Under the pieces are notes generated by a model. That model was not told where the DNA came from, searched no databases, and saw nothing but the letters and a program-made list of their open reading frames with translations. Of a DNA stretch of 64,000 nucleotides, positions 4,661 through 53,088 are shown piece after piece. The translations under genes and the position numbers were made by a program. Origin of the DNA: Gaiellaceae bacterium (GTDB lineage Bacteria; Actinomycetota; Thermoleophilia; Gaiellales; Gaiellaceae); contig JBOGZU010000011.1 of the NCBI GenBank assembly GCA_050697455.1, positions 2,278 to 66,277 on the forward strand, in the 5' to 3' direction. Position 1 is the stretch's first letter, and each line of letters begins with the position of its first letter.

Positions 4661-7357
<2,697 letters not shown>

Positions 7358-8318: not shown

Positions 8319-9178
8319 CGCCGGCCTCCGGCGAGCGTCAACGCGGTGACTCCCGCGAGCAGCGCACCCGCTGCGGCGAGCATGTTCGTCCACATCTCCG
8401 GCAGGTGCTTGGTCGAGACGACCGGGTCGGGCGGCAGCCCGTAGACCTCCGGATCGTCGAGCAGGAGGAAGAAGGCGCCAAAGCCGCCGACGCCGTCCTC
8501 GGGGTCGCGGCCGTACAGCTGCGCGCCGTTCCACCCGTCGCCGGAGAGCTTCGCCAGCCGCTCGTCGGCCTTCTCCCGCAGCTCGTCGAGCGGGCCGAAC
8601 TGGATCGACTTCGTGGGGCACGCCTTCGCGCACGCCGGCTCGTGGCCGCCCTTGAGACGGTCGTAGCAGAGCGTGCACTTCCAGACGCGGCCGTCTTCCT
8701 TCGCGAACGCCGGCAGATCCGGCGCCGGAGCGAGATGCCGCTTGTCGAGCACGCCGAACGGGCACGCCGGCACGCAGTAGCCGCAGCCGTTGCAGATGTC
8801 CTGCTGGACGACCACCGTGCCGAACTCGGTGCGGAACAGGGCGCCGGTCGGGCAGACGTCGAGGCACGCCGCGTGGGTGCAGTGCTTGCAGACGTCCGAC
8901 TCCATCAGCCAACGGAGCCCGGTCTCGCCGTCGCCGTTCGTGGCGAGCGGCTTCTCCTGCTCGACGAAGGCGACGTGCCGCCACGTGTTCGCGTTCAGCT
9001 CGGACGTGTTGTCGTAGGACTCGCCCGTCCAGGTGAGGCCGTCTTCCGGGATCAGGTTCCACTCCTTGCACGCCACCTCGCACGCCTTGCAGCCGATGCA
9101 GACGGACGTGTCGGTGAAGAAGCCGACGCGCTCCTCTTGCTCGCTCCCGTACGTCGCGATCCCGTCGGCGGCGCTCAT
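8315..9178 (-). CDS. 4Fe-4S ferredoxin-type (FdnH/HybA-like) electron-transfer subunit with C-terminal TM helix
   Basis: It starts MSAADGIATYGSEQEERVGFFTDTSVCIGCKACEVACKEWN. It carries four Cys clusters (CIGCKAC..C, CKHCTHAAC..C, CNGCGYCVPAC, CTLCYDR...CAKAC). The start overlaps the alpha-subunit stop. Confidence 0.9.
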   Translation of the reverse strand: MSAADGIATYGSEQEERVGFFTDTSVCIGCKACEVACKEWNLIPEDGLTWTGESYDNTSELNANTWRHVAFVEQEKPLATNGDGETGLRWLMESDVCKHCTHAACLDVCPTGALFRTEFGTVVVQQDICNGCGYCVPACPFGVLDKRHLAPAPDLPAFAKEDGRVWKCTLCYDRLKGGHEPACAKACPTKSIQFGPLDELREKADERLAKLSGDGWNGAQLYGRDPEDGVGGFGAFFLLLDDPEVYGLPPDPVVSTKHLPEMWTNMLAAAGALLAGVTALTLAGGRR

Positions 9179-12100
9179 GTCTTCCGCACCTCCTCGGGCT
9201 CGACGCGCGGCTCCTGCTCTCGCCGCGAATGCGCCTGCTCGCGCAGCTCCGCGACGAAGCGCGTCAGCTCGGGCCCGCGCGGCCGGCGGCCGGGCCTGAC
9301 CCCGCAGGTGAACGCCTTGACCTCCTGGATGTGGACGTTCGGGTCGAGCGCCATGTGCGCGAGGTCGTTCGCCGAGTCGCCGGTGACGATCCCGCGCTGG
9401 CCCCAGTGGTACGGCAGCCCGATCTGGTGGATGGCACGGCCGTCCATCTGGACCGGCCGCATCCGCTCTGTCACCATCACCCGCGCCTCGATCGCCGAGC
9501 GGGACGTGTAGATCGTCGCCCAGCCGCCGTGCTCGAGCCCGACCTCGCGCGCGAGATCGGGGTGCACCTCGCAGAACATCTCGGGCTGCAGCTCGGCGAG
9601 GTAGGGGACGGAGCGGGTCATGCCGCCGGCCGTGTGATGCTCGGTCAGCCGGTAGGTCGTGACGACGTAGGGATAGACCTCGGCGCCCGGCTCGTCGGCG
9701 ACCGGGTTGTACGGATCCTCCGCCATGTCCTTGTTCTGCTGGCGGCGCGGGTTCGCGCGCTGGGAGTAGAGGGGGTTGCCGAACGGCGACTCGTGCGGCT
9801 CGTAGTGCGTCGGCATCGGCCCGTCCTCGAGCCCCTGCGGGACGTAGAGCCAGGAGCGCCCGTCGGCCTGCATGACGAACGGGTGGTCGCCGGCGATGGC
9901 GTCCTCGGCCTCGGCGTCGTCGGGCGGCACGTAATGCGGGCTCTTGTCCTCCTCGAAGTCGGGGACGTCGGGGCCGGTCCACTTCCCCTCGGCGCCGTCC
10001 CACCAGACGTAGCGCTTCCGTTCCGACCACGGGTTCCCGTCGGGATCTGCCGAGGCGCGGTTGTAGAGAAGCCGCCGGTTCGCCGGCCACGCCCACGCCC
10101 ACTCGGGCGCGACGTAGCTGTCCTGCTCCCAGTGCGGCTTCTTCCGCGCGGTCTGGTTGATGCCGTCCTTGAAGCAGCCGGAGTAGATCCAGCAGCCGCA
10201 GAGCGTCGAGCCGTCGTCCTTCAGCTCCGGATAGCCCGTGAGGAACTTGCCGGTCGCGATCTCCTTGCCGTTGACCTCCTGCAGGATCGCCTCGGCGTCG
10301 GGCTCGCGGATCGCGGAGTGCGTCGGGTACTCCCAGCGCAGCGACTTGATCAAGAGGTCGCGCTCGTCCTCCGAGCCCTCGAGCTTCTGCTTGATCAGCC
10401 GGCCGAGGTGGAAGTAGAACCAGAGGTCCGAGCGGCAGTCCTCCTTCGGCTCGACCGCCTGCCAGTGCCACTGCAGCAGGCGCTGCGTGTTCGTGAAGGA
10501 GCCCTCCTTCTCGGTGTGCGTCGCGGCGGGGAGGAAGAAGACCTCGGTCGGGATCTCCTCCGTCTTCAGCTCGCCGGACTCGATCTCCGGCGCGTCGCGC
10601 CAGAACGACGCGGACTCGATCTCGACGATGTCCCGCACGACGAGCCAGTCGAGCTTTGCAAGGCCGAGCCGGTTCGCCTTGCCGTTCGCGTTCCCGACCG
10701 CCGGGTTCTCGCCGGCGATGATGTAGCCCTTCACCTTCCCCGCGAGCATCTGCTGGACGGTGAAGTAGGCAGAGTTGTCGTCGTCGATGCGCGGCAGCGA
10801 CTCGAAGAGGAAGTCGTTGTCCGCGTTGGCGTTCTCGCCGAAGTAGGCCTTCATCAGCGAGACGAAGTAGGCGCGGAAATGGCCCCACCAGCCCGTCGGC
10901 GACGTGTTCGCCGCGATGTACGCGGCGAGGTCGCCGTAGCGCTCCGTGTGCGGCATCGGCAGGTAGCCGGGGAGGATGTTGTAGAGCGTCGGGATGTCCG
11001 TCGAGCCCTGGATCGACGCGTGCCCGCGCAGCGCCATGATCCCGCCGCCGGGCCGCCCGATGTTTCCGAGCAGCTGCTGGATGACTGCCGCGGCTCGGAT
11101 CGTCTGGACTCCGGTCGTGTGCTGCGTCCAGCCGACCGCGTAACAGAACGCGCTCGTCCGCTCTCGGCCAGAGTTGGCGACGAGCGTCTCGCAGACCTCG
11201 AGGAAGTCCGCGACCGAGCAGCCGCACGTCTCGGCGACGAGCTCGGGCGTGTAGCGCTGGTAGTGCTTCTTGAGGAGCTGGAGGACGCAGCGCGGGTCCT
11301 GCAGCTCGGGGTCCTCCGACGGCGGCTCGCCGTGCTGAAGACCGCCGCCGTGGCCACCGTGACCCGAGCCCTCGCCTTTCGTGGGCGAGAAGCCGTCCTC
11401 GCGCTGGCCCGCCGCGCCGTGCGTCTCCATCCCCTCGTACATCCACTGCTCGACGTCGTACTCGCCCTCCTCGGGATCCCAGCCCGAGAAGAGGCCGTCG
11501 AGATCCTCGGTGTCCGCGAACTCCGGCCGGATGATCACCGGCGCGTTCGTGTACTTCTCGACGTACTCCTTGAAGTAGAGGTCGTTCTGGAGGATGTAGT
11601 TGGCGATGCCGCCGAGGAAGGCGATGTCGCTACCGGCGCGGATCCCGACGTGCTTCGTCGCCATCGCGCTCGTCCGCGTGAAGCGCGGGTCGACATGGAT
11701 GACCTTCGCGCCGCGCTCCCTGGCCTCCATCACCCACTGGAATCCCACCGGGTGGTTCTCGGCCATGTTCGAGCCCATGATCACGATGCAGTCCGAGTTC
11801 TGCAGGTCCTGCTGGAACGTCGTCGCGCCGCCTCGTCCGAACGAGGTGCCCAGACCGGGCACCGTGGAGCTGTGTCATATGCGGGCCTGGTTCTCGACCT
11901 GGACGATCCCGAGGCCCGTCATCAGCTTCTTGATGAGGTAGTTCTCCTCGTTGTCCAGCGTTGCGCCGCCGAGGTTGCCGATCGCCATCGTCCGGTTGGA
12001 GGGATTGCCGTCCTCGGTCTTCCACTCCCACGTCTCGGCACGGGTCTTGACGATTCGGTCGACGATCATCTCCATCGCGTCGTCGAGCGAGAGCTCCTCC

Positions 12101-12444
12101 CAGGCGCTGCCGTACGGGCGCCGGTACTTGACCTTGTACTCGCGGAGCGGGCTCTGGACGAGGCTCTTCGAGGCCTGCCCCTTCGGGCATAGCCGGCCGC
12201 GGGAGATCGGCGACGCAGGGTCGCCCTCGATGTGCGTGACCTCTCCGCCGGCGACGTAGACGAGCTGGCCGCAGCCGACCGCGCAATACGGGCAGACGGA
12301 GTGGACGACGTGCTCGGCCTCGTCGATCCGCGCGGTGAGGTTCTTGGAGCGGGGCGACTGCGCCGCCTTCCCGAGCCCGAGCAGGTCTCCCTCGCGCAGC
12401 TGCCTGAGCGCGGGCCAAGACTCGAGCAACCTCGCGAACTCCAT
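9175..12444 (-). CDS. formate dehydrogenase alpha subunit (molybdopterin oxidoreductase), selenocysteine-containing; UGA-Sec at 11875..11877
   Basis: ORFs 11875..12444 and 9175..11862 are in one frame. Read-through gives ...LGIVQVENQARI-[TGA]-HSSTVPGLGTSFGRGGATTF, the conserved FDH Sec/Cys active-site motif. The N-terminal CPYCAVGCG FeS motif is present. A SECIS-like hairpin lies 11 nt after the UGA. Confidence 0.9.
11845..11863 (-). promoter_or_regulatory. SECIS upper stem-loop for the FDH UGA codon
   Basis: The RNA GGUGCCC-GGUCU-GGGCACC forms a 7-bp perfect stem. It starts 11 nt 3' of the UGA. The apical GGUCUG string is the same as in the E. coli fdhF minimal SECIS (GGUUGCAGGUCUGCACC, from memory). 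Confidence 0.7.
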
Positions 12445-12571
12445 CCCGAAAGAGTCTTTCCGATCCGGAGGGCCAGGTAAACAGGATTGCGAGCTACCTG
12501 CAAATCGCGATGTTTTCCCAGCGTGTGGCCGGGCACCTAGCTATTACAACGGAATACGAAGGAGTGGTGTC

Positions 12572-25125: not shown

Positions 25126-25943
25126 ATGCTCGCGAGCGCCCGGCTGACGAGCGCTCGCGCGAGCGGCAGCTTCCACTCCGTGCGCGGTAACGGTGTCGCC
25201 GCATCGAGCGCCTCGATCCCGTCGATCCGCCACGGAATCGGCGCCACGCCCGCAAGGGCGATACGTATCTCCCCGCCCACCCGCGCGGCGGCCACGCCGA
25301 CTTGCGGGAAGGACCACCGCTTCCGATCCATGGCTTTGAGGTAGACGCTCGCCTCCACGTCGGGCAGCTCGACCTCGAGGATCAGCTCGCCGTCCTCGAG
25401 CGTCGTGGTGCGCCGGTCACCCTCGTCCGGCAGCCGGTACAGCTCCTCCACAGCCAGCTCGCGCCGGTTCGTCCGCAGTCGCGCGCCGAGCGCGACGAGC
25501 GCGGCCGCGACATCGGAGGGATGCGCGGAGGCGCAGAAGTCGTTGGCGAAGATCGCGTGCTCGCGGTGCTCGCCTTCGCGCGCGTGGCAGCGGTCGCCGC
25601 CGTGCAGGCGGCAGTCGTAGCCGAGCCGCCAGTACCAGCAGCGCGTCGCCTGCAGGAGATTCCCCCCGAGCGAGCCCATGTTGCGGAGCTGCGGCGACGC
25701 CGCGAGCCGGCACGCCTCGCGCAAGGCGTCCGGGATTCCCGGCTCCACTTCGAGCTCGCCGAGCGTCGTCCCGGCGCCGATCACCCCGTCGCGGACGCCG
25801 CGTGGCACGACGCCGCGCACGTCGACGAGCGTCTCCGCCTCGAGCAGACCGTCGCGCAGGAGCGGCACGACCTCCGTTCCTCCCGCAAGTAACACAGTGT
25901 TACTTGGGATTTCGGAGGCGTCAGACGGCCGCAGGAGCTCCAC
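25122..25943 (-). CDS. xanthine dehydrogenase family FAD-binding subunit (CoxM/XdhB-like)
   Basis: It contains LLAGGTEVVPLLRDG, NMGSLGGNLLQ, and a CO-dehydrogenase flavoprotein C-terminal-like tail. Confidence 0.9.
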   Translation of the reverse strand: MELLRPSDASEIPSNTVLLAGGTEVVPLLRDGLLEAETLVDVRGVVPRGVRDGVIGAGTTLGELEVEPGIPDALREACRLAASPQLRNMGSLGGNLLQATRCWYWRLGYDCRLHGGDRCHAREGEHREHAIFANDFCASAHPSDVAAALVALGARLRTNRRELAVEELYRLPDEGDRRTTTLEDGELILEVELPDVEASVYLKAMDRKRWSFPQVGVAAARVGGEIRIALAGVAPIPWRIDGIEALDAATPLPRTEWKLPLARALVSRALASM

Positions 25944-28128
25944 GCCGTTCCTTCTTCTTCGCCTCGGCCTCGCGGAGCGCGCGCAGCATCTCCTCGCGGG
26001 AGATCGGCAGCTCGCGGACGTCCGCGCCCGTCGCGTCGCGAATCGCGTTGGCGATCGCGGCGGCGACGGGGACGATCGGCGGCTCGCCGAGCCCCTTCGA
26101 GCCGAGATTCGTCAGGTGCGCGTCTGGCTTGTCGACGAACTCGCAGACGATCTCCGGCACGTCGGCGATCGTCGGCATCCGGTAGCTCTCCAGCGTCGAC
26201 GTGAGGACGCGACCCGTCGCGGGGTCGAGCAGCCGCTCCTCCGAGAGCGTGTGGCCGATGCCCTGGATGATCCCGCCCTCGACCTGGCTCGAGGCGCCGA
26301 GCGGATTGACGATGCGGCCGACGTCGTGGATCGCCGCGACGCGCTCGACGACGATCTCGCCGGTCTCGACGTCCACCGCGACTTCGACCACGTGGACGCC
26401 GAAGGTGAGGACGCTCATGCCGGCCGGGTTCGGGCCGCGTGCGCCCTTGCCGAGGATCTGCCCGTCCTCGAGCACGTCCACGACCTCCTCGACCGGCGCG
26501 TCGCGCGGCAGGCCGCGCTGCTCGGCGATGTCCTCGATCTGCTGTCGCGCGTCGGCGGCCGCGGCGCGCACGGCCGGACCCATCGAGGGAAGCGTCGACG
26601 AGCCCGCGGAGATAGAGGCGTACGGCCCGCGGGCGGAGTCGCCGAGGACGACGTCCACCTTCTCGAGCGGCAGCCGCAGCTCCTCGGCCGCGATCTGCGC
26701 CATCGCCGTGCGCGTGCCCGTGCCGATGTCCTGCATCGCCGTGATCACGGTCGCGCGGCCATCGGAGCCGATCCGCACCCACGCGTAGGAGGGAGGCCCG
26801 CCGCCGCCGTACCAGATCTGACTTGCCATCCCGACGCCGCGCTTCCACGTCGCGTCCGACCGCGCGCGCACCTCGTTGCGCCGCTCCCAGTGCGGCTCGG
26901 CCATTCGGTAGCAGTCCGCGAGGTTCTTCGAGGAGAAGGGCACGCCGTCGTTGGAGCCTGCGTAGTTGCGCCGCCGCAGCTCGAGCGGATCCATGTCGAG
27001 CTTTGCCGCGAGCTCGTCGACGAGGCACTCGAGCCCGAACGTCCCTTCGACGAAGCCCGGGGCGCGGAAGGCCTTCATCGGCGGCGTGTTCAGCTGCGCG
27101 CCGTACGTGACCGTGCGGACGTTCTCGCAGTCGTAGAGCATCTTCATCGGGCCTTCGGTGGAGGCGTTCCAGCCCGACCAGCCGACGGAGTTCGTGAACT
27201 CGCCGTCGAAGGCGACGATCGTCCCGTCGCTCTTCGCGCCGGCACGGAGCCGCTGGACGGTCGCGTTGCGGTTGCCGGCGGCGGTGTGCTCCTCGCGGCG
27301 TGTCAGCGCGCAGCGCACCGGCCGTCCCGTCCGCTTCGCGAGCTCGGCGGCGACGAACGTGTATTCGTCGGGCCCGTTCTTCGAGCCGAAGCCGCCGCCC
27401 ATGAACTCGCAGACGACGCGCACCTTGTCCGGCGGCAGCTCGAGCGTCTCGGCGACCGCGTTCCGGACTCCCCAGATGAACTGCGTCGAGATGTAGACGT
27501 CGAGCCTGTCGCCGACCCACTCGCAGATCGCCTGGTGGGTCTCCATCGAGTTGTGGAGGACGGTCTGCGTGCGGTACGTCGCCTCGACGACGACGTCCGC
27601 CTGGGCGAGCGCCTTCTCGACGTCGCCGCGCGCGTAGCTGCGCGGTTCGGCCGTGAAGAGCTCGCGCTTGACGGCGTCGTCCGGATCGAGCACGACCTCG
27701 AGCTCCTCCCACTCGACGTCGATTGCGGCGACCGCCGCCTGCGCCTGGCGGAACGTGTCGGCGGCGACGGCGGCGACTGCTGCGCCGGAGAAGCCCGCCT
27801 CCTCGTTGAGGCCGTGCGCTTCCCCCGGGCCGACGGCGGCGCGGACGCCCGGCAGCGCCAGCGCCGGCGCGAGGTCGATCCGCTTGACGCGTGCGTGCGC
27901 GTGCGGCGAGCGGAGCACGGCGGCCTGGAGCATCCCGGGCAGGCGGATGTCGGCGGTGTAGCGCGCCTCGCCGCGCACCCGTTCGGGCGCGTCCTTGCGC
28001 GGCGCGGGGCGGCCGACGACCTCGCGCGGCCCTTCCGGCCATTGCTCCAGCGGATCCTCCTCGACGACGATCCAGACCTCCTCGAACCGCCCTTCGACCT
28101 CTTTTTCGGTCCGGATCAGCCTTGCCAC
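25921..28128 (-). CDS. xanthine dehydrogenase family molybdopterin-binding large subunit
   Basis: A GTG start (VARLIRTEKEVEG...) overlaps the 2Fe-2S gene end. It contains GEARYTADIRLPGMLQAAVLRSPHAHARV, GGGFGSK, and about 735 aa of aldehyde oxidase/XDH a/b hammerhead plus Mo domains. Confidence 0.9.
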   Translation of the reverse strand: MARLIRTEKEVEGRFEEVWIVVEEDPLEQWPEGPREVVGRPAPRKDAPERVRGEARYTADIRLPGMLQAAVLRSPHAHARVKRIDLAPALALPGVRAAVGPGEAHGLNEEAGFSGAAVAAVAADTFRQAQAAVAAIDVEWEELEVVLDPDDAVKRELFTAEPRSYARGDVEKALAQADVVVEATYRTQTVLHNSMETHQAICEWVGDRLDVYISTQFIWGVRNAVAETLELPPDKVRVVCEFMGGGFGSKNGPDEYTFVAAELAKRTGRPVRCALTRREEHTAAGNRNATVQRLRAGAKSDGTIVAFDGEFTNSVGWSGWNASTEGPMKMLYDCENVRTVTYGAQLNTPPMKAFRAPGFVEGTFGLECLVDELAAKLDMDPLELRRRNYAGSNDGVPFSSKNLADCYRMAEPHWERRNEVRARSDATWKRGVGMASQIWYGGGGPPSYAWVRIGSDGRATVITAMQDIGTGTRTAMAQIAAEELRLPLEKVDVVLGDSARGPYASISAGSSTLPSMGPAVRAAAADARQQIEDIAEQRGLPRDAPVEEVVDVLEDGQILGKGARGPNPAGMSVLTFGVHVVEVAVDVETGEIVVERVAAIHDVGRIVNPLGASSQVEGGIIQGIGHTLSEERLLDPATGRVLTSTLESYRMPTIADVPEIVCEFVDKPDAHLTNLGSKGLGEPPIVPVAAAIANAIRDATGADVRELPISREEMLRALREAEAKKKERRGAPAAV

Positions 28129-28556
28129 GTGAGAATCGCCTCCTCGATCTTGGGATAGGTGCCGCAGCGGCAGATGTTCCCCGCCATCGCGTGTCTGATC
28201 TCCTCGCGCGTCGGCTCGGGATTCGCGGCGACGAGAGCGGCGGCGGAGACGACCTGGCCCGGCGTACAGAAACCGCATTGGACGGCGTCGGTGCGGACGA
28301 ACGCCTCGACGAGCGGGTGGTCGCGCAGCCCCTCGATCGTCGTCACCTCGCCGTCGACGGCGTGGACGAGCGTGATGCACGAGAGCCGCGGCATGCCGTC
28401 GACCTGGACGGTGCAGGCGCCGCAATGTCCCTCGTTGCAGGCGATTTTCGTCCCGGTCAGCCCGAGCCGGTCGCGCAGCACTGAGGCGAGACTCGTCCCG
28501 ACCGGCGCGTCGAGGACGTGCTCCTCGCCGTTGATCGTGAGCCGCGCCTCAGACAC
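28116..28556 (-). CDS. (2Fe-2S)-binding small subunit of the XDH-family enzyme
   Basis: It contains CNEGHCGACTV, FCTPGQV and NICRCGTY. Confidence 0.9.
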   Translation of the reverse strand: MSEARLTINGEEHVLDAPVGTSLASVLRDRLGLTGTKIACNEGHCGACTVQVDGMPRLSCITLVHAVDGEVTTIEGLRDHPLVEAFVRTDAVQCGFCTPGQVVSAAALVAANPEPTREEIRHAMAGNICRCGTYPKIEEAILTWQG

Positions 28557-29786: not shown

Positions 29787-30800
29787 ATGAAGAAACTCAT
29801 CGTTCTTTTCTCCGTTCTCTCTGTCTTGCTCGGCGCCTTGCTGGGCGCCGCCTCGGCGCGCGGCAGCGGCGCCGGCAGCATCGTCGTCGGCGAGGTCTTT
29901 GCGGCCGGCGGCAACAGCGGCGCGCCGTATGCGAACGACTACGTCGAGCTCGTCAACCGCGGGAGCGGCGCGGTCTCTGTCGGAGGCTGGACGCTGCAGT
30001 ACGCGTCCGCGACTGGCACGACCTGGCAGACGACCGCGCTCGCGGGGTCGATTCCGGCGGGCGGTCGCTATCTCGTCCAGCTCGCCTCGGGCGGCCTAAA
30101 CGGCGCCGCGCTGCCGACTCCGGACGCGGCCGGAACCTTGAACCTCGCGATGACCGGCGGGAAGGTTGCGGTCGTCGACGATGGCTCGACGACCGAGGAT
30201 CTCGTCGGTTGGGGAAACGCGACCGACTTTGAGGGCAGCGGCCCAGCGCCGGCGCTTACCTCGACGACAGCCCTCGTGCGCGCCGGCGGCGGCTGCACCG
30301 ACGCCGACGACAACGCCTCCGACTTTGCCGATGCGTCGCCGAACCCGCAGAACTCCTCGGCGGCTGGGATCTCCTGCTCGGGCTCCGGATCAGCCGGCGG
30401 CGATCAGTCCGGCGCGGTCGACCTCGACCTCGAGCCCGTCCTCTCGGTCGGCCTGGACCGTGACACGCTGAGCTTCGGCGCGGCGCTGCCGGGGACGACT
30501 CCGGCGCCGCTCGCCGAGCACGTCACCGTGTCGAGCAACGACTCGAGTGGCTACACGCTCACCGTGCAGCGGACGTCGTTCTCGCCGCACGACCTGCCGC
30601 TCGGGATCGGCGTCGACGCCGGCCAGCTCGCGGCCGTGCCGGTCGCCCCGGCGAGCGGCCTTTTGTTGGCGACGGCAAACGGCCCGAGCGCTGTGGGCGG
30701 TGACGAGTGGACGACGAGTGTCGGCTTCGTCTCGCCGCTGCCGGATCTGCCGTCGGGGCAGTACACGGCGACGATCACGTTCACGGTGATCGGACGGTGA
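29787..30800 (+). CDS. secreted lamin-tail-domain (LTD) protein with C-terminal beta-rich domain
   Basis: The signal peptide MKKLIVLFSVLSVLLGALLGAASA uses low-GC codons. The LTD signature is present (YANDYVELVNRGSGAVSVGGWTLQY...GRYLV..., VDLVGWG). The C-terminus is ...GQYTATITFTVIGR. Confidence 0.8.
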   Translation: MKKLIVLFSVLSVLLGALLGAASARGSGAGSIVVGEVFAAGGNSGAPYANDYVELVNRGSGAVSVGGWTLQYASATGTTWQTTALAGSIPAGGRYLVQLASGGLNGAALPTPDAAGTLNLAMTGGKVAVVDDGSTTEDLVGWGNATDFEGSGPAPALTSTTALVRAGGGCTDADDNASDFADASPNPQNSSAAGISCSGSGSAGGDQSGAVDLDLEPVLSVGLDRDTLSFGAALPGTTPAPLAEHVTVSSNDSSGYTLTVQRTSFSPHDLPLGIGVDAGQLAAVPVAPASGLLLATANGPSAVGGDEWTTSVGFVSPLPDLPSGQYTATITFTVIGR

Positions 30801-31537
30801 GGCGGACCGCGGCCGCGTCGCTCGTCGCGGCGGCGGTCTTCGCGCCGCACGCCTCGGCGGGCACGGGGCTCAGCGTCAGCCCGCTGCGGCTGGCGCTCGT
30901 TGGGAGATCGAGCGCGACCATCACCGTGCGGAATCCGAGCGGACGGCCACTGCTCGTCGCGGCCGGCCGGGCCGGCTTTGCGCGCACGCTGCGAGGCCGG
31001 CCGCGGGTCCGTGCCGTGCGTGGCGCCGCCGACTGGCTGCGGGTCCGTCCGCGGCGCCTTCGGCTCGCGCCGCACGCGACCGGGACGCTTCGGGTCACGG
31101 CGCTGACGCCCTCGACCGCGGCGGCCGGCGACCATCCCGCGCTCGTCCTGCTCGGAACCCGCCAGCCCGGCGACCGGCGCGTCCGGGTTCTCCTGCGCGT
31201 CGGGGTCGTCGTCCTCGTCCATGTCACCGGCCCTGTGGTGCGGCGGCTCGAGCCACAGGCGCTCACGGTCGAACGGCGGGGCAGGAAGCGACTCTTCGAG
31301 TTGCGGCTCGCCAACCGCGGCAACGTCCTGGAAAGACTCGGCGGCGCCCGGCTGCGGCTCGTTCTGCTGCGCGGCGGCACCGCTATCGCGAGGCTGCGGC
31401 CTCGCCGGCTGGAGCTGCTGCCGCACAGCGCGGGTATCGCCGAGTTCGTCTATCGCGGCCGCCTGCGCGGCAGGATCGACGCCCGCGCCGAGTTGGCTTC
31501 ACCGGGGCGCTCGCGCTCTTATCGGCTCAGGCTGTGA
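30797..31537 (+). CDS. secreted PapD-/DUF916-like beta-sandwich (chaperone-like) protein, very Arg-rich
   Basis: GTGA overlap with the LTD gene. The signal is VRRTAAASLVAAAVFAPHASA. GLSVSPLRLALVGRSSATITVRNPSGRPLLV resembles the first strands of pilus-chaperone/DUF916 folds. Confidence 0.55.
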   Translation: MRRTAAASLVAAAVFAPHASAGTGLSVSPLRLALVGRSSATITVRNPSGRPLLVAAGRAGFARTLRGRPRVRAVRGAADWLRVRPRRLRLAPHATGTLRVTALTPSTAAAGDHPALVLLGTRQPGDRRVRVLLRVGVVVLVHVTGPVVRRLEPQALTVERRGRKRLFELRLANRGNVLERLGGARLRLVLLRGGTAIARLRPRRLELLPHSAGIAEFVYRGRLRGRIDARAELASPGRSRSYRLRL

Positions 31538-32162
31538 CGCGGCGGATGAACTCCGCCTCCGGCACCGAGCCATCCCAACGCGGCTCGCCGTCGACCACGA
31601 TCCGAGGCACCGCGTAGACGCCCATCTCCTGCGAGAGCTGCGGGAACTCGTTCGCCTCGATTGCAGTCGCAGTCACCCGCTCGGAGGCGAGAGCGCAACG
31701 GAACGCCAGCAGAACGGCCGGCGGGCAATGCGGTCAGGTCGGCGTGACGAAGACGTCGAGCGAGAGGTCGCGCTCGAGCTCCTCGAGCACCGCGACCGAC
31801 TCCGGCTGCAGCGACGACTCGGCCCGTCCCGCCTCCACGATCGCGCCGACAAGCGAGCCCATCTCGTAGCCCCAGGGCAGCCCGTCGTAGCGGACGCCGG
31901 CGTCGCGGCCCGCGGGCCGGACGGAGATGGACGGGAAGCGGGGCACGTCCGCCGGCTCCTCCTCGACGCGGTGCGTCACGCTCTCGCCGAGCTCGGCCAG
32001 CGCTTCCACGAGCCGCAGCGCCTCGGCGCCGAAGTCGACGTCGCCCGCTCCCGCCAGCGGCGTCTCCTCCGGCCCCAACGCGACGACGAGCTCGACGGGC
32101 CGCTCGAGCTCGGCGAACCACGCGCGCACCTTCTCGGTCTCCTCCGGGCGAAAGATCCCCAT
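31527..32162 (-). CDS. glutaredoxin-like/PDO-type thioredoxin-fold protein, candidate selenoprotein (UGA at 31734..31736; motif T-U-P-H-C)
   Basis: ORF 31734..32162 ends ...LSLDVFVTPT then TGA. The same frame continues for 68 codons with no stop: PHCPPAVLLAFRCALASERVTATAIEANEFPQLSQEMGVYAVPRIVVDGEPRWDGSVPEAEFIRRVTA. This matches the CPYC unit of glutaredoxin-like PDO proteins. Confidence 0.65.
31704..31723 (-). promoter_or_regulatory. possible SECIS-like hairpin downstream of the UGA at 31734..31736
   Basis: The RNA CGCCGGC-CGUUCU-GCUGGCG forms 7 bp including one G-U pair. It starts 10 nt after the UGA and has GU in the loop. It has not been folded computationally. Confidence 0.35.
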
Positions 32163-32169
32163 GGCCGCG

Positions 32170-33582
32170 TTATGCCCGGGCGTGGAGGTCTTCGATCGCG
32201 CGCTCGAGCTCGTCGAGCCGCGCGGCGCCGAACTCGCGCACCGTCCCGTGGGCGTCGACGGCGACGTTCGTCGGGACGCCGCGTACGCCGAGCTCGCCGG
32301 CGAGCTTGCCCTCGGGGTCGAGCAGGATCGGCCCCTTGATCCCCCACATTTCGCAGAAACGCTCGACCTCGGGACGGGGCTCCGTCCCCTCCCAGATGTC
32401 GACGAGAATCACCTCGGGGCCCGACCGGGCCCCTTCGCGAATGCGCAGCTCCTCGAGGAACGGCGCCTCCGCGTTGCACGGCCCTCACCAGGAGGCGAAG
32501 AAGTTGAGGATGTACTTCTTCTCGGCCCAGTCGTCGTTCGTGCGGCGCTCGCCCGTCCAGTAGTCCTCGAGCGAGAACTCCGGCAGGCGCTTCCCGATCC
32601 ACGGGCTCGGCTCCTCGACCACCGGCACGGGAGGGCGCGCCGCGAGGAGGTCCTCGACGATCGACAAAGTCTGGCTGCCGGCGTTGGCGACGAGGACGCG
32701 GCCGTCGTGCCGGTCGACCACGACGCCGCCAGGCCCGTTGCCGACCGGGATCTGCGTCCACTCGGTGCGGTCGGCCACGCCGATCACCGTGAGCGTCCCG
32801 GCGCCGCGGTTCGTCACGTAGATCCGATCGTGAGCGGGCGCGACGGTGAGGCCGACGGGCGCCTGGCCGGTGCGGATCTCCTCCACGACCTCGTGCGAGT
32901 CGAGGTCGACGCGCGAGACCGTGCCGGCGATCGAGTTGACGATGAACGCCTCGCCGCGCTCGGGAAGGATCCCGATCGCGCAGGTGCCGGTGCCGAGCTC
33001 GAGGCGTCCGATCTCCTCGAAGGACTCTGCGTCGAAGAGGTTCGCGGAGGCAGCGACGAAGTTGACGCAGATAACGAGGTTGCGCGTCGGGTCGACGCCG
33101 ATCGCGCCGGCGCCCGGCTCCGCGTCGACCGTCGCCACCGTTTCGAGCGAGTCGAGGTCGATGACGCTCATCGTCGAGCCGAGCGAGTTGCCGACGTAGA
33201 GGCGGCGGAACTCCGGGACGTGCGTGAGCCCGGACGGATAACCGCCGACGGGCAACGTGGTCTCCACCTCGAGCGTGGCCGAGTCGATGACCGTCACGGA
33301 ATCGGAGTGGGCGTCCGCCGTGAAGACGCGGCCGGTCTGCTCGTCGAGCCCGATGTCGATCGGTTCTGCTCCGGTGGAGATCTCCGCGATCACCCCGTGC
33401 TCCTCGAGGTCGACGACCGAGACGAAGTCGCTGCGGGAGCAGGCGACGAAGGCCCGCCGCCGCTCGACGTCGACGGCGATTCCCTCGGGGTCGAGGCCGA
33501 CCGGGATCTCGGCCACCTGCCGCCACGGCGTTCGCGCGTCGATACGGCACGCCGCGCCGACCGGGAAGGTCGCCTCCTCCAT
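32170..33582 (-). CDS. YVTN-type beta-propeller fused to a TlpA/ResA-like redoxin domain, candidate selenoprotein (UGA at 32485..32487; motif W-U-G-P-C)
   Basis: ORFs 32485..33582 and 32170..32412 share one frame with no other stop between them. Read-through gives ...KKYILNFFASW-[TGA]-GPCNAEAPFLEEL...GVRGVPTNVAVDAHGTV. The N-terminal 365 aa carry repeated ...V.VID... propeller repeats. Confidence 0.7.
32459..32475 (-). promoter_or_regulatory. weak candidate SECIS-like hairpin downstream of the UGA at 32485..32487
   Basis: The RNA AACGCG-GAGG-CGCCGUU forms a stem with one bulged C, 9 nt after the UGA. Alternative foldings exist (GAGG/CCUC). It needs computational folding. Confidence 0.25.
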
Positions 33583-33641
33583 CGCGCGAGTATCGCTGTT
33601 CGCGCCTGAGGCAGGAATAAGAACCGTCTAGGATCGAGCGC

Positions 33642-34778
33642 ATGTCCGACGTCCTGATCTACGCCGATTCGATGCGCTCCGCCGACCTGCGGCACGCCAT
33701 CCCGCTCGGGGTCCCCGACCCCATCCTCTACGCCGAGGCGCACGGTGCGAAGCACGTTTTCACCCACGCGATGGAAGCGCCACGCCTGCGCGCGCTCGGG
33801 CTCTTCGAGGTGCATGTGTCCGAGGAGTTCGGCTCCGACGAGCTGCTCGAGTCCGGGTTGAAGTCGCCGGAGATCCGTGCCCAACTCGCGGCTCGCGAGG
33901 TCGCGAGCCTCGGTCTGAAGCGTGTAGCCGTCCCCGAGGAGTTTCCCGTCTGGCTCGCGGATCACTTGCGCGCCGAAGGCGTCGAGATCGTGCCGGACCA
34001 GGACTTCTTCGACGACCGCCGGCGCTCGAAGACCGACGCTCAGCTCGCCGGGATGAGGCGCGCCCAGAAGGCCGCCGAGGCCGCGATGGACACCTGCCGC
34101 GACCTGCTGCGCCGCTCCGAGATCAAGGGCGACGAGCTGATCCTGGACGGCCAGCCGCTCACCGTCGAGCGCGTCAAGGCAGCCATGAACGTCACGTTCG
34201 CCGAGCACGACACCACGCCCGACGAGTACATCGTCGCGCCGGGCGCGCAGGGCGCCGTCGGGCACGACATGGGCTCCGGGCCGATTCCGCCGCACACGCC
34301 GCTCGTCGTGGACATCTTCCCGCGCGACAACGCGTCCGCCGTGTTCACGGACATGACTCGCACCTTCGTCGTCGGCGACGTCGCGGACGACGTGCGCGAG
34401 TGGCACCGCCTCGTCAAGGAGGCTCTCGACCGCGCTCTCGCCGAGATCCGCGCGGGGCAGGAGGGACGCGCGATATTCGACGGGACGTGCGAGATCTTCG
34501 AGGCGGCGGGCGAATCGACGCAGCGCACGAAGAAGCCGGGCGAGCCGCTCGCCGACGGGTTCTTTCACGGCCTCGGGCATGGCGTCGGCCTGCAGGTGCA
34601 TGAAGCGCCTGGAATGGGACGCATTTCCGACAAGAAGCTCGTCGCCGGCGACGTGGTCACGGTCGAGCCGGGCCTCTACCGGCAGGGGTACGGCGGCGTC
34701 CGGCTCGAGGACATCGTCCTCGTCACCGAGAGCGGCGTCGAGAACCTGACGAACTATCCGTACGACCTCGCCCCTTGA
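33642..34778 (+). CDS. M24 family Xaa-Pro aminopeptidase/dipeptidase
   Basis: It contains DMTRTFVVG, HGLGHGVGLQVHEAP, VVTVEPGLY and GVRLEDIVLVT. Confidence 0.9.
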   Translation: MSDVLIYADSMRSADLRHAIPLGVPDPILYAEAHGAKHVFTHAMEAPRLRALGLFEVHVSEEFGSDELLESGLKSPEIRAQLAAREVASLGLKRVAVPEEFPVWLADHLRAEGVEIVPDQDFFDDRRRSKTDAQLAGMRRAQKAAEAAMDTCRDLLRRSEIKGDELILDGQPLTVERVKAAMNVTFAEHDTTPDEYIVAPGAQGAVGHDMGSGPIPPHTPLVVDIFPRDNASAVFTDMTRTFVVGDVADDVREWHRLVKEALDRALAEIRAGQEGRAIFDGTCEIFEAAGESTQRTKKPGEPLADGFFHGLGHGVGLQVHEAPGMGRISDKKLVAGDVVTVEPGLYRQGYGGVRLEDIVLVTESGVENLTNYPYDLAP

Positions 34779-41325: not shown

Positions 41326-41615
41326 CCCTGCTCGAGCGGCGCCATCGTCAGGCCCTGCTCCCGCAGTTGCTCCCAGTACAGCTCCGCTTGCTCGCGCAGT
41401 CCCGACCAGACGATCGCCTGCCCCGAGGAATGGATCCGGTCGGCGAGCCGCAGGCCGGCGTCGTAGGAGAGGCCGGGAATGACGCTCGAGAGCGCGAAGG
41501 CGACGCCCTGGAACGTGTTGTGGTCGTCGTTGAGGACGATCACGTGCCACGGCCGCCCGAGCCCCGTTCCCTCGCCGCGGCCGAGTCGCTCGCGTGGCGG
41601 CGTCAGCGTGCTCAC
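41322..41615 (-). CDS. clpS: ATP-dependent Clp protease adaptor ClpS
   Basis: It contains ...WHVIVLNDDHNTFQGVAFALSSVIPGLSYDAGLRLADRIHSSGQAIVW... The GTG overlaps the osmC stop. Confidence 0.85.
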   Translation of the reverse strand: MSTLTPPRERLGRGEGTGLGRPWHVIVLNDDHNTFQGVAFALSSVIPGLSYDAGLRLADRIHSSGQAIVWSGLREQAELYWEQLREQGLTMAPLEQG

Positions 41616-51372: not shown

Positions 51373-52067
51373 GGAACGTCGCCGTTCGACGAGCCCATCC
51401 GTTCGATCACGACCTGGGGGATCCGCGCGGTGGGGCTGAGGCGCAGGCACATGCGGACGACCTCGGCGCAATCCTCCGGCCGGATCATCTCCTCGTGCTC
51501 GAGCCCCGACCACTGCGCCATCGGCGTGTCGACGAAGCCGGGGCAGATGGCGATCGAGCGGACGCCGTCCGCGTCGAGCTCGGCGTTGAGTGAGCGGGTG
51601 AGCGAGATGACTGCGGCCTTCGTCGCGCCGTATGTCGCGAGCCCGGGAGTCGGCAGCGTGCCGGCGATCGAGGCGAGATTGACGATCCAGCCACGCGATT
51701 CACGGAGGAGCGGGATGGCCGCCTGCGTAACGAGGAAGAGGCCGCGCAGGTTGATGTCGAGCTGGAGGTCGAGCTTCTTCAGATCGAGATCCTCGACCGT
51801 GCCGCCGATCCCGACGCCGGCGGAGTTGACGAGCACGTCGATTCGGCCGAACCGCTCGCGGTGCTCTGCGACCGCGCGTGCGCAGTCGTCCGGATCCGCG
51901 ACATTCGCGGCGATTGCAGCCGCCCCGAGCTCGGCCGCCGCGGCTTCGATCTTCTCCTGCTGGCGGGAGACGAGCGTCAGGTCGTAGCCCTCCTCGCGCA
52001 GGAGCCGCGCGATCGCGAGCCCGATTCCCGAGGAGCCGCCGGTGACGAGTGCCGCGCGATCTGCCAT
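51369..52067 (-). CDS. SDR family oxidoreductase
   Basis: An internal ATG gives MADRAALVTGGSSGIGLAIA (TGxxxGIG motif). NSAG and YGATKAA are also present. Confidence 0.85.
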   Translation of the reverse strand: MADRAALVTGGSSGIGLAIARLLREEGYDLTLVSRQQEKIEAAAAELGAAAIAANVADPDDCARAVAEHRERFGRIDVLVNSAGVGIGGTVEDLDLKKLDLQLDINLRGLFLVTQAAIPLLRESRGWIVNLASIAGTLPTPGLATYGATKAAVISLTRSLNAELDADGVRSIAICPGFVDTPMAQWSGLEHEEMIRPEDCAEVVRMCLRLSPTARIPQVVIERMGSSNGDVP

Positions 52068-52089
52068 TCCGCCGCCTACAGTAAACGGC

Positions 52090-53088
52090 GTGAAGACCGC
52101 AGGACTGACGAGCCTCAGCGTCGGCGGCGGCTGCGCTGCGAAGTACTCGGCGGCCCGGCTCGAGGAGTTGCTCAAGGGATTCGTGCCGGCGGAGGCGGAG
52201 GATCTCCTTGTCGGCCTCGACCCGGCCGACGACGCCGCGGTCTACAGGCTCGACGAGGAACGCGCGCTTGTCTTCACCGTCGACTTCTTCCCGCCGCTCG
52301 TCGACGATCCCGCGCTGTTCGGCCGCATCGCGGCGACGAACGCGCTGAACGACGTCTTCGCGATGGGAGGGACGCCGCTCCTCGCGCTCTCAATCGCGGC
52401 TTTCCCGGAGGAACTCCCGACCGAGGTGGTCGCCGCGGTCTTCGCCGGCGCCGAGGAGCAGGTGCGCGCCGCGGGCGCGATTCTCGCGGGCGGGCACACG
52501 ATTCGCGACGCCGAGCCGAAATACGGGCTCGCGGTCGTCGGCACCGTCCATCCGGACGCAGTCTGGGTCAAGAGCGGCGCGCGGCCCGGCGACGCCGTTT
52601 TCCTCACGAAGCCGCTCGGCACCGGCCTCGTTCTCGCCGCGAAGGGCGACATCGGGGAGGCGGCGCGGTGGATGACGACGCTGAACGACGCCGCGGCCGA
52701 CGTCCTGCGCGCCTTCTCGCCGCACGCCGTGACCGACGTCACGGGCTTCGGCCTTTTTGGGCACGCGCACGAGACCGCGGAGCGGAGTGGCGTGCAGCTC
52801 GTTCTCGAGTCGGCGTCGTTCCCCGCGCTCGCGGGTGCGCTCGAGGCGGCTCGAGCGGGGACTCGAACCGGCGGCGATCCGCGCAATCGTGAGTTCGCGC
52901 CGGTCGAAGAGGACGGCGTGCCGGAGGAGCTGCTCGCGCTCGGCTACGACGCCCAGACGGCGGGTGGACTGCTCGTGACGCTGCCGGCCGAGAAGTCGCT
53001 CTCCCTCGAGGCGGAGTTCGCGCGCTGCGATCTCTTCCTCGTGCGGGTGGGGTCGGTGGAGGAGGGAGGCGGCGTTGTCGTCCGTTAG
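52090..53088 (+). CDS. selD: selenide, water dikinase (selenophosphate synthetase), Cys-type
   Basis: The GTG start gives VKTAGLTSLSVGGGCAAKYSAARLEELL (E. coli: [20 protein letters not shown]). It contains DDAAVYRL...FTVDFFPPLVDDPALFGRIAATNALNDVFAMGGTPL and an AIR-synthase-like C-terminal domain. Confidence 0.9.
   Translation: MKTAGLTSLSVGGGCAAKYSAARLEELLKGFVPAEAEDLLVGLDPADDAAVYRLDEERALVFTVDFFPPLVDDPALFGRIAATNALNDVFAMGGTPLLALSIAAFPEELPTEVVAAVFAGAEEQVRAAGAILAGGHTIRDAEPKYGLAVVGTVHPDAVWVKSGARPGDAVFLTKPLGTGLVLAAKGDIGEAARWMTTLNDAAADVLRAFSPHAVTDVTGFGLFGHAHETAERSGVQLVLESASFPALAGALEAARAGTRTGGDPRNREFAPVEEDGVPEELLALGYDAQTAGGLLVTLPAEKSLSLEAEFARCDLFLVRVGSVEEGGGVVVR

What the first reader, a model, noticed from the sequence alone, without database searches (positions are those of the whole stretch)
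31527..32162. Glutaredoxin-like (PDO-type) protein with TGA in place of the first Cys of CPxC (T-U-P-H-C): second candidate selenoprotein, 7 nt downstream of the first
Seen in sequence:
- ORF 31734..32162 ends ...ERDLSLDVFVTPT then TGA.
- The same frame then runs 68 codons without a stop to TGA at 31527..31529: PHCPPAVLLAFRCALASERVTATAIEANEFPQLSQEMGVYAVPRIVVDGEPRWDGSVPEAEFIRRVTA.
- Together this is a ~211-aa two-unit thioredoxin-fold protein. Its second unit matches the archaeal/bacterial glutaredoxin-like PDO pattern (f.tptCPyCp.a......a.......i...efpela..y.V.aVP.ivi) except that the first Cys is the TGA.
- A hairpin CGCCGGC-CGUUCU-GCUGGCG starts 10 nt after the UGA (plus-strand 31704..31723). 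This spacing resembles the FDH SECIS in this window.

Inference: this is a Sec-dependent disulfide reductase co-transcribed with the propeller-redoxin gene. The intergenic gap is 7 nt (32163..32169).
Basis: partly seen in the sequence, partly recalled or inferred. Interest (0 to 1): 0.8.

Follow-up and report, generated by a model that had tools for sequence, protein, structure and literature searches.

The report
Selenocysteine disulfide oxidoreductase, miscalled as truncated
This is a real selenocysteine-containing two-domain thioredoxin-fold redox protein in a soil actinobacterium (Gaiellaceae) that databases cut short at its UGA codon, but it belongs to a selenoprotein family already predicted in other microbes, so it extends a known kind and is not a new one.

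Summary
On the minus strand, a 142-codon ORF (32162..31737) runs into TGA (31736..31734). It continues in frame for 68 codons to a second TGA (31529..31527).

Evidence that the TGA encodes selenocysteine:
- The joined 211-aa protein is a full-length PDO / AhpF-N-terminal-domain-like double thioredoxin fold. The TGA aligns with the first Cys of the C-terminal CxxC.
- In 80 distinct related sequences the TGA sits at the same codon. 11 relatives have TGC there.
- The tail is under stronger purifying selection (dN/dS 0.14) than the head (0.22).
- The 7-bp/6-nt hairpin, 10 nt after the UGA, meets all published bacterial SECIS criteria.
- The hairpin's stem codons are frozen at synonymous sites in UGA forms. 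They drift in Cys forms of the same clade.
- The same contig carries selD and a formate dehydrogenase with UGA at its catalytic position.
- TGA is an ordinary stop in other genes of the window.

[quoted passage not shown] This is a new, widespread and systematically mis-annotated clade in Gaiellaceae. Its link to the upstream propeller-redoxin selenoprotein is common but not obligatory.

selA, selB and tRNA-Sec were not in the window. No experimental evidence exists.

The parts
31527..32162 (-). Complete coding sequence of the selenoprotein: 211 residues (M1...A211, U143) plus the terminal TGA. It is a stand-alone double thioredoxin-fold PDO / AhpF-N-terminal-domain-like protein with one redox centre, T-U-P-H-C.
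   Evidence: Translation. TIGR02187.2 hit at 158 bits covering 7-210 of the protein and 3-207 of the 209-position profile. Pfam Thioredoxin_3 on residues 136-209. PDB 1J08 E=1e-24 over the full length. AF2 model of a 76%-identical Cys homologue: pLDDT 94.4, TM 0.86-0.87 to 1J08/1A8L.
31734..31736 (-). In-frame UGA read as selenocysteine (residue 143), the N-terminal attacking position of the UxxC motif.
   Evidence: TGA at the identical codon in 21 of 22 genome loci and in 80 distinct sequences overall. TGC in 11. Aligned to the first Cys of CPYC in P. horikoshii PDO. 64 database proteins end exactly at ...VFVTPT or ...VYVTPT.
31704..31723 (-). Apical stem-loop of the bacterial SECIS: 7-bp stem CGCCGGC/GCUGGCG (one G-U pair) and 6-nt loop CGUUCU (CGUGCU in most relatives). 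It lies within codons P147-A153.
   Evidence: Hairpin -11.7 kcal/mol, loop 6 nt, stem 7 bp, G-U at loop positions 2-3, 17 nt between UGA and loop. These meet the bSECIS model in PMC13188914. Stem codons have synonymous heterozygosity 0/0/0/0/0.025, against a mean of 0.37 in 24 comparable codons. Cys forms in the same clade drift.
31527..31529 (-). True stop codon (TGA) of the selenoprotein gene.
   Evidence: Relatives end at the equivalent place within 0-5 codons, mostly with TAG.
32170..33582 (-). Upstream gene, probably co-transcribed: YNCE-like beta-propeller fused to a Redoxin/AhpC-TSA domain. It carries its own in-frame UGA (32487..32485) in a W-U-G-P-C motif. It is a possible redox partner.
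   Evidence: Translation. Pfam YNCE, Redoxin and AhpC-TSA. FFASW-TGA-GPC conserved in 22 genome loci. Present upstream in 38 of 63 evaluable UGA-type loci.
9175..12540 (-). Context evidence: formate dehydrogenase alpha subunit interrupted by UGA at 11877..11875, the catalytic Sec/Cys position. A hairpin GUGCCC-GGUCU-GGGCAC follows.
   Evidence: NF041513 profile positions 3-185 match before the TGA and 187-1066 after it, at 1503 bits. Hairpin seen.
51988..53088 (+). Context evidence: selD (selenophosphate synthetase), Cys type (GGGCAAK). Coordinates are the stop-to-stop ORF; the profile match starts at about 52105.
   Evidence: TIGR00476 at 326.5 bits against a cutoff of 125. Sequence.

Best explanation
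The gene at 32162..31527 (minus strand) encodes a single 211-residue selenoprotein.

Decoding (inferred). During translation the UGA at 31736..31734 is decoded as selenocysteine. A SelB/Sec-tRNA(Sec) complex would be recruited by the SECIS stem-loop that starts 10 nt downstream, inside the coding sequence. Translation then continues to the real stop, 68 codons later.

Fold and chemistry. The product is a cytoplasmic, stand-alone double thioredoxin-fold protein of the PDO / AhpF-N-terminal-domain type. The first unit has no redox motif. The second carries U143-P-H-C146 at the strand-beta1/helix-alpha1 turn. By analogy with PDO and the AhpF N-terminal domain, it should cycle between a selenolate/thiol form and an intramolecular selenenylsulfide. 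It would act as an electron carrier that takes reducing equivalents from a thioredoxin-reductase-like flavoprotein (not encoded nearby) and passes them to client proteins.

Possible client. In this genome the most obvious candidate is the beta-propeller-redoxin selenoprotein encoded 7 nt upstream.

What is shown: the reading frame, the fold, Sec/Cys pairing, purifying selection on the tail, and a nucleotide-level constraint on the hairpin that tracks the UGA.

What is inferred: actual Sec insertion, the electron donor, the client, and the direction of electron flow.
For: Frame and family
- Full-length hit to TIGR02187.2 'PDO_seleno_TRX'.
- Thioredoxin_3 domain spans the UGA.
- PDB PDOs 1J08/1A8L and AhpF N-terminal domains match, with the UGA on the first Cys of CPYC.
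- AF2 model pLDDT 94.4 puts residue 143 between strand 133-139 and helix 146-159. Foldseek TM is 0.86-0.87 to the PDOs.

Conservation of the UGA
- 21 of 22 species-level genomes have TGA and one has TGC.
- Overall there are 80 distinct TGA sequences and 11 distinct TGC sequences.
- Among the top 120 protein hits, 51 are CPHC full-length and 64 are truncated calls ending at VFVTPT or VYVTPT.

Tail is coding
- dN/dS is 0.14 in the tail against 0.22 in the head, at dS of about 0.5.

SECIS
- All four criteria of the published bSECIS model are met.
- Five of five stem codons are invariant at third positions. Only about 9% of comparable codons are.
- Within the P0010-like clade, 4 of 4 TGA forms keep the stem, while 4 of 5 TGC forms carry synonymous changes in it.

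Sec trait in the organism
- The FDH alpha subunit is split by TGA exactly at profile position 186.
- selD is on the same contig.
- A second conserved UGA redoxin lies next door.
- TGA is a normal stop elsewhere: TypA and the PepQ-like gene end at TGA at the end of their profiles.
Against: - No selA, selB or tRNA-Sec lies in the 64-kb window.
- The hairpin is not more stable than shuffled sequence.
- The hairpin shows no compensatory base changes. It is simply invariant, so the structural evidence is indirect.
- Another invariant codon run (IEANEFPQ) shows that codon freezing can occur for other reasons.
- The protein and its whole clade score below the curated TIGR02187 cutoff: 147-183 bits against 185.
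- The proposed client gene is missing from 25 of 63 evaluable loci.
- No reductase gene is nearby.
- There is no experimental evidence of Se incorporation.
Confidence: 0.9

Rival explanations
1. UGA is a genuine stop. The real product is the 142-residue protein that the databases annotate, and the 68-codon tail is a decaying remnant or a chance open frame in G+C-rich DNA.
For: - Annotation pipelines call it this way (P0007 and 63 similar truncated entries).
- Long stop-free stretches are common in this 70% G+C window.
- The hairpin energy equals that of shuffles.
Against: - Tail dN/dS is 0.14, lower than the head.
- The tail's amino-acid conservation is 0.93 against 0.87 for the head.
- The tail completes a thioredoxin fold. 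Only strand beta1 of that fold lies before the UGA, and a 142-residue product would have no redox motif at all.
- The TGA is fixed at one codon in 80 distinct sequences.
Confidence: 0.03
2. The UGA is read through, but not as selenocysteine. It could be read as Trp or Cys by near-cognate suppression, or through lineage-wide UGA reassignment.
For: - Cys is the residue at this position in homologues.
- One database entry (P0003) has Trp, from TGG.
- selA, selB and tRNA-Sec were not seen in the window.
Against: - TGA terminates other genes of the window at the ends of their profile alignments.
- It is the commonest stop among likely genes, so there is no reassignment.
- A catalytic FDH position also carries UGA.
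- selD is present.
- The hairpin at SECIS spacing is conserved only where the codon is TGA.
- If Cys were wanted, TGC is one mutation away, yet TGA is retained in 80 distinct sequences.
Confidence: 0.04
3. Split gene: two separate polypeptides are made, a 142-residue head and a tail that is re-initiated. They assemble non-covalently.
For: Domain-split thioredoxin-fold proteins exist in principle. That is general knowledge and was not tested here.
Against: - There is no start codon directly after the UGA. The first Met of the tail is 36 codons in (QEMGV) and no earlier GTG or TTG lies in frame within the first 18 tail codons, so any restart would lose the PHC motif and most or all of helix alpha1.
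- The break falls inside the beta1-alpha1 active-site turn.
- Cys-type homologues are uninterrupted.
Confidence: 0.01

Closest known systems
[quoted passage not shown] Reported in Carboxydothermus hydrogenoformans (ABB15282.1), Symbiobacterium thermophilum and Asgard archaea (PMC13188914 table; PMC1794560 Tables 1 and 3).
   Same: - Same best-matching model (TIGR02187.2), aligned end to end.
- Same stand-alone ~210-aa double thioredoxin fold.
- Sec at the first position of UxxC in the second unit.
- Cys-containing homologues exist.
- The SECIS lies inside the coding region.
   Different: - The Gaiellaceae/Thermoleophilia clade scores under the curated cutoff, at 147-183 bits against 185, Cys forms included. 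That makes it a sister clade.
- The dipeptide is P-H, as in DsbA, whereas the PDO structures matched here have P-Y.
- The hosts appear in soil-type metagenomes, whereas the published members are thermophilic anaerobes or microaerophiles.
- I could not obtain ABB15282.1 for a direct alignment.
Protein disulfide oxidoreductases (PDO) of hyperthermophiles: P. furiosus 1A8L, P. horikoshii 1J08, Aquifex aeolicus 2AYT/2YWM, Aeropyrum pernix 2HLS.
   Same: - Fold TM 0.83-0.87 and sequence E = 1e-24 over the full length.
- The C-terminal-unit active site aligns (TPTCPYCP against TPT-U-PHCP).
   Different: - The P. horikoshii PDO has a second CxxC in its N-terminal unit (gkehCqyC in the alignment). This protein has no Cys there (GPEETPLAG).
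- This protein has Sec where the PDOs have Cys.
N-terminal domain of alkyl hydroperoxide reductase subunit F (AhpF; 1ZYN, 1HYU, 4O5Q, 5H29).
   Same: - Double thioredoxin fold, TM 0.80-0.86.
- A single redox centre in the second unit. That is from general knowledge of AhpF.
- It acts as an intramolecular electron carrier to a peroxiredoxin. This suggests the carrier role proposed here.
   Different: - AhpF is ~520 aa, with the domain fused to an FAD/NADH thioredoxin-reductase-like module. This protein is a 211-aa stand-alone.
- The TIGR03140 score is only 74 bits against a cutoff of 503.
- No AhpC gene was identified among the ORFs scanned.
Bacterial SECIS consensus (bSECIS model; E. coli fdhF as the archetype).
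   Same: - Stem-loop inside the ORF directly after the UGA.
- 6-nt apical loop with G-U at loop positions 2-3, 7-bp upper stem, 17-nt spacing, -11.7 kcal/mol.
- The window's own FDH has a GGUCU loop at nearly the same distance.
   Different: - No supported lower stem and no bulged U was identified.
- SelB binding is untested.

Membership tests
Bacterial selenoprotein gene (general criteria) | In-frame UGA aligning with a conserved, redox-active Cys in homologues (Sec/Cys pair) | tested here: met
   TGA against TGC at the same codon in close relatives. 51 CPHC homologues. Aligned to the first Cys of CPYC in 1J08.
Bacterial selenoprotein gene (general criteria) | Sequence downstream of the UGA is conserved as protein, and UGA-containing homologues occur in other organisms | tested here: met
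   Tail dN/dS 0.14. 80 distinct TGA-type sequences from genomes and metagenomes.
Bacterial selenoprotein gene (general criteria) | bSECIS element: 3-9 nt loop, 4-16 bp stem, G in the first two loop positions, 16-37 nt from the UGA, MFE <= -7.5 kcal/mol (PMC13188914) | tested here: met
   Loop 6 nt (C-G-U-K-C-U), stem 7 bp, spacing 17 nt, -11.7 kcal/mol. The synonymous-site freeze is specific to UGA forms. There are no compensatory changes, because every pair is invariant.
Bacterial selenoprotein gene (general criteria) | The organism has the Sec-decoding trait (selA, selB, selC, selD) | tested here: inconclusive
   selD is present. FDH has UGA at its catalytic position. A second conserved UGA redoxin is present. 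selA, selB and tRNA-Sec are not in the 64-kb window, and the rest of the genome could not be searched.
Bacterial selenoprotein gene (general criteria) | Selenium demonstrated in the protein | not testable with these tools
   This needs 75Se labelling or mass spectrometry.
NCBIfam TIGR02187.2 PDO_seleno_TRX (equivalog) | Whole-protein score at or above the curated cutoff of 185 bits | tested here: not met
   158 bits with U replaced by C. Natural Cys homologues of the clade score 147-183 bits.
NCBIfam TIGR02187.2 PDO_seleno_TRX (equivalog) | End-to-end alignment to the ~209-position model, with the CxxC/UxxC in the C-terminal unit | tested here: met
   Residues 7-210 against profile positions 3-207 of 209. 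It is the best family hit by more than 80 bits.
Pyrococcus-type PDO | Two thioredoxin folds in one chain | tested here: met
   AF2 secondary structure. Foldseek TM 0.86-0.87.
Pyrococcus-type PDO | Two CxxC active sites, one per unit | tested here: not met
   The N-terminal unit has no Cys where 1J08 has CQYC (alignment; sequence).
AhpF | N-terminal double-Trx domain fused to an FAD/NAD(P)H thioredoxin-reductase-like module (~520 aa) | tested here: not met
   The ORF is 211 aa. TIGR03140 scores 74 bits against a cutoff of 503, covering only profile positions 8-195.

The most novel reading that the evidence does not exclude
In the Gaiellaceae subclade that contains this window, the U-P-H-C PDO-like protein and the adjacent beta-propeller-redoxin (W-U-G-P-C) would form a dedicated relay of two selenoproteins. 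A cytoplasmic selenol carrier with a DsbA-like P-H dipeptide would feed a propeller-tethered selenoredoxin.

This would make part of the thiol redox metabolism of abundant soil Actinomycetota selenium-dependent. A Sec-to-Sec electron relay encoded as one operon has not, to my knowledge, been described.
Probability: 0.25. Interest if true: 0.55.

Novelty: new member of a known kind. Interest (0 to 1): 0.35.

Why it matters
There are three consequences.

First, annotation. At least 64 protein clusters in public databases are truncated at this UGA and labelled 'hypothetical protein' or 'AhpF'. The clade falls just under the curated model's cutoff, so pipelines will keep missing it.

Second, distribution. 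The finding extends a rarely reported, purely computational selenoprotein family into Gaiellaceae/Thermoleophilia, a lineage that appears in soil-type metagenomes. The published records are two thermophiles (Carboxydothermus hydrogenoformans and Symbiobacterium thermophilum) plus Asgard archaea.

Third, an experimental handle. Natural UGA and UGC forms occur inside one clade, with and without an intact hairpin. That gives a clean system for asking what a minimal actinobacterial SECIS needs. It also allows study of repeated Sec-to-Cys exchange.

The finding does not change any concept.

Tried and rejected
- Single-sequence folding of the UGA context gave z = -0.06. It is uninformative in 70% G+C sequence.
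- The Rfam gathering scan of the window found no families.
- ARAGORN found no tRNA or tRNA-Sec in the window.
- The extended lower stem proposed by RNAfold is not supported by the 80-sequence consensus fold. Only the 7-bp apical stem survives, with no covariation.
- I searched the window for selA and selB using NCBIfam and Pfam on all sizeable ORFs. Only selD turned up.
- The promoter/terminator scan of 31200-33900 found nothing on either strand.
I modelled the 76%-identical natural Cys homologue P0002 instead.
- I expected the metagenome scan with Cys-type queries to return Cys forms. It returned mostly UGA forms, which turned out to be more useful.
- A literature search for the exact phrase 'AhpF N-terminal domain-like' with 'selenoprotein' found nothing. 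'Gaiellales' with 'selenocysteine' gave one irrelevant paper. A broader search found the catalogue entries.
- I considered lineage-wide UGA reassignment and rejected it, because TGA terminates other genes at the ends of their profiles.
Full report
**1. What is in the sequence**

On the minus strand an ATG at 32162 opens a frame of 142 sense codons ending ...ERDLSLDVFVTPT. A TGA follows at 31736..31734. The same frame then runs for 68 more sense codons (PHCPPAVLLAFRCALASERVTATAIEANEFPQLSQEMGVYAVPRIVVDGEPRWDGSVPEAEFIRRVTA) to a TGA at 31529..31527.

The upstream gene ends with TAA at 32172..32170, seven nucleotides before the ATG. The hairpin CGCCGGC-CGUUCU-GCUGGCG lies at 31723..31704 and starts ten nucleotides after the UGA. 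Every coordinate in the finding is therefore right.

Neither feature is remarkable alone. The window is 70% G+C and long ORFs overlap in all frames. The hairpin region folds no better than dinucleotide shuffles, with z = -0.06.

**2. The two halves are one protein**

With Cys substituted for the UGA, the 211-residue product matches NCBIfam TIGR02187.2 'PDO_seleno_TRX' end to end. Residues 7-210 align with profile positions 3-207 of 209, at 158 bits. Pfam Thioredoxin_3 covers residues 136-209 and so spans the UGA.

Against solved structures the best matches are the protein disulfide oxidoreductases of Pyrococcus horikoshii (1J08, E = 1e-24, residues 2-209) and P. furiosus (1A8L). Aquifex PDO and the N-terminal domain of AhpF follow. 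The UGA aligns with the first Cys of the C-terminal CPYC.

The AlphaFold2 model has pLDDT 94.4 and pTM 0.92. It shows two consecutive thioredoxin folds and puts position 143 in the turn between strand 133-139 and helix 146-159, the canonical CxxC site. Foldseek returns the same PDOs (TM 0.86-0.87) and AhpF N-terminal domains.

A product ending at residue 142 would hold only strand beta1 of the second fold and no redox motif. The first unit has no Cys where P. horikoshii PDO has CQYC.

**3. Comparative evidence for recoding**

The window comes from a Gaiellaceae (Thermoleophilia) MAG. The 142-aa call P0007 is 100% identical and is named 'hypothetical protein ACRDLM_08320 [Gaiellaceae bacterium]'.

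- Genomes. In 22 species-representative genomes with an intact frame, 21 have TGA at exactly this codon followed by PHCPPAVLLA..., and one (L006) has TGC.
- Metagenomes. Adding metagenome contigs gives 80 distinct TGA-type and 11 distinct TGC-type sequences.
- Proteins. Among the top 120 protein hits, 51 full-length proteins have CPHC, and 64 truncated entries end at ...VFVTPT or ...VYVTPT.
- Selection. Pairwise Nei-Gojobori estimates over 19 genomes give dN/dS of 0.14 for the tail and 0.22 for the head, at dS of about 0.5. The part after the 'stop' is the more strongly constrained coding sequence.

**4. The hairpin as SECIS**

The published bacterial SECIS model (PMC13188914, Fig. 2) sets four requirements. 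The element here meets all of them.

| Criterion | Published model | This element |
|---|---|---|
| Apical loop | 3-9 nt | 6 nt (C-G-U-K-C-U) |
| Upper stem | 4-16 bp | 7 bp |
| Loop sequence | G in the first two loop positions, usually followed by G or U | G-U at positions 2-3 |
| UGA to loop | 16-37 nt | 17 nt |
| MFE | <= -7.5 kcal/mol | -11.7 kcal/mol |

The window's FDH gene has a comparable hairpin, GUGCCC-GGUCU-GGGCAC, at almost the same distance from its UGA.

The hairpin lies in codons P-P-A-V-L-L-A, so I asked whether it is constrained beyond the protein. In the 80 UGA-type sequences, the five stem codons have synonymous heterozygosity of 0, 0, 0, 0 and 0.025. The two loop codons have 0.025 and 0.24. 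Twenty-four other conserved four- or six-fold codons in the same 210-nt segment average 0.37, and only one is below 0.05 (the smaller set is).

The Cys-type relatives keep the same peptide but not the same codons. Within the P0010-like clade (82-92% nucleotide identity over the compared segment), 4 of 4 TGA forms retain the exact stem. By contrast, 4 of 5 TGC forms carry synonymous changes in it: GCC to GCG, CTG to CTC, GCG to GCA, and CCG to CCC. TGC forms nested among UGA forms (L006, L048, L070, L082) still have the stem, as expected for recent Sec-to-Cys replacements.

There are limits to this evidence. Every stem pair is invariant, so there is no compensatory covariation. The consensus fold supports nothing beyond the 7-bp stem. 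Another frozen codon run (IEANEFPQ) shows that freezing is not unique to this site. The counts are also not phylogenetically independent.

**5. Does the organism decode Sec?**

- The FDH alpha subunit at 12540..9175 is split by TGA (11877..11875). NF041513 profile positions 3-185 match before it and 187-1066 after it, which places the TGA at the catalytic Sec/Cys position.
- selD (Cys type, GGGCAAK) lies at 51988..53088, scoring 326 bits against a cutoff of 125.
- The upstream propeller-redoxin carries W-TGA-G-P-C, conserved in 22 genome loci.
- TGA is otherwise a normal stop. TypA and the PepQ-like gene end at TGA where their profiles end, and TGA is the commonest terminator of likely genes. 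That excludes codon reassignment.
- selA, selB and tRNA-Sec are not in the window. I could not search the rest of the genome, so their presence is inferred.

**6. Context and likely function**

Gene order is conserved. A divergent PepQ-like peptidase comes first, then the propeller-redoxin, then this gene, then a convergent gene of unknown function at 30704..31537 (+). No promoter- or terminator-like site separates the two redoxin genes, so co-transcription is plausible here.

The pairing is not universal. The redoxin gene lies upstream in 38 of 63 evaluable UGA-type loci. In the others the PDO-like gene directly abuts the PepQ-like gene. L003, L005 and L023 have about 900 bp between the two genes. 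The PDO-like selenoprotein is therefore an independent unit that acquired a neighbour in one subclade.

No thioredoxin reductase or peroxiredoxin gene was identified among the ORFs scanned.

By analogy with PDO and the AhpF N-terminal domain (established biochemistry of those families), I infer a carrier that cycles between selenolate/thiol and selenenylsulfide. It would be reduced by a thioredoxin-reductase-like flavoprotein and would reduce client proteins. The neighbouring selenoredoxin is a candidate client.

**7. Comparison with what is known**

[quoted passage not shown] It was recorded in Carboxydothermus hydrogenoformans and Symbiobacterium thermophilum (PMC1794560), and later in Asgard archaea.

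The Gaiellaceae clade is a sister group. Both its Sec and Cys members fall just under the curated cutoff, at 147-183 bits against 185. That probably explains why the truncated calls persist as 'hypothetical protein' or 'AhpF'.

It differs from Pyrococcus-type PDO in having one redox centre where PDO has two. It differs from AhpF in being stand-alone. It is therefore a new, abundant and mis-annotated member of a known kind.

**8. Verdict**

| Claim | My confidence |
|---|---|
| The UGA encodes Sec | about 0.9 |
| The 7-bp hairpin is the SECIS core | about 0.85 |
| The protein is a redox carrier | about 0.6 |
| The propeller-redoxin is its partner | about 0.3 |

Interest is moderate to low, because the family, the motif position and the mechanism are all already catalogued.

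Noticed in passing
window 9175-12540 (-), UGA at 11875-11877: The formate dehydrogenase alpha subunit (NF041513, actinobacterial type) is interrupted by an in-frame TGA at the catalytic position. A hairpin GUGCCC-GGUCU-GGGCAC follows, whose GGUCU loop resembles the E. coli fdhF SECIS loop (from memory). Databases would annotate it as two ORFs.
   Followed up: partly
window 32170-33582 (-), UGA at 32485-32487: A YNCE-like beta-propeller is fused to a Redoxin/AhpC-TSA domain with W-U-G-P-C. The TGA is conserved in 22 genome loci. A longer stem-loop follows it and shows G-C to G-U changes across 35 distinct sequences. No signal peptide is evident at the N-terminus on reading the sequence.
   Followed up: partly
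window 51988-53088 (+): selD (selenophosphate synthetase), Cys type (GGGCAAK). It sits among unrelated genes (SDR, CtaA-like, PAC2) and is not in a sel operon.
   Followed up: partly
L001-L022, last codon of the PDO-like gene: The true terminator of this gene is TAG or TAA in 18 of 21 relatives. TGA is the commonest stop among likely genes in the window. The window, L001 and L020 are the exceptions that use TGA. This might reflect avoidance of a second UGA close to a SECIS. It was not tested.
   Followed up: no
protein P0003 (JGI metagenome, 1364-nt contig): One full-length homologue has W-P-H-C, presumably TGG in place of TGA or TGC. It could be a sequencing error, an inactive allele or a suppressor-like variant.
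   Followed up: no
L003 5100-6000, L005 5091-6000, L023 5089-6000; L011 5644-6000: In these relatives about 900 bp (350 bp in L011) separates the propeller-redoxin gene from the PDO-like gene. In the window the gap is 7 nt. The forward frames show no clear ORF, so a gene on the opposite strand or a remnant may lie there.
   Followed up: no
L023 and L024 (MFD long-read MAGs), match region 6001-6634: The PDO-like gene, and parts of its neighbours, are frameshifted in these two assemblies. These are most likely assembly indel errors rather than pseudogenes.
   Followed up: no
window 25122-28548 (-): A molybdenum hydroxylase cluster: a PaoC/XdhA-like large subunit plus an FAD-binding subunit. It has sub-threshold similarity to selenium-dependent xanthine dehydrogenase models (TIGR03311 at 241 bits, cutoff 830). 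That is probably just family resemblance.
   Followed up: no
window 30704-31537 (+) versus 31527-31529 (-): The convergent gene of unknown function has no Pfam hit and is 55-66% conserved in relatives. Its ORF overlaps the stop codon of the selenoprotein gene by about 11 nt. The opposite-strand ORF 30551-31498 (-) is less conserved and is probably spurious.
   Followed up: partly
window 40171-41634 (-): A class-V aminotransferase (Aminotran_5, cysteine desulfurase / selenocysteine lyase-type fold). Any link to selenium metabolism is untested.
   Followed up: no
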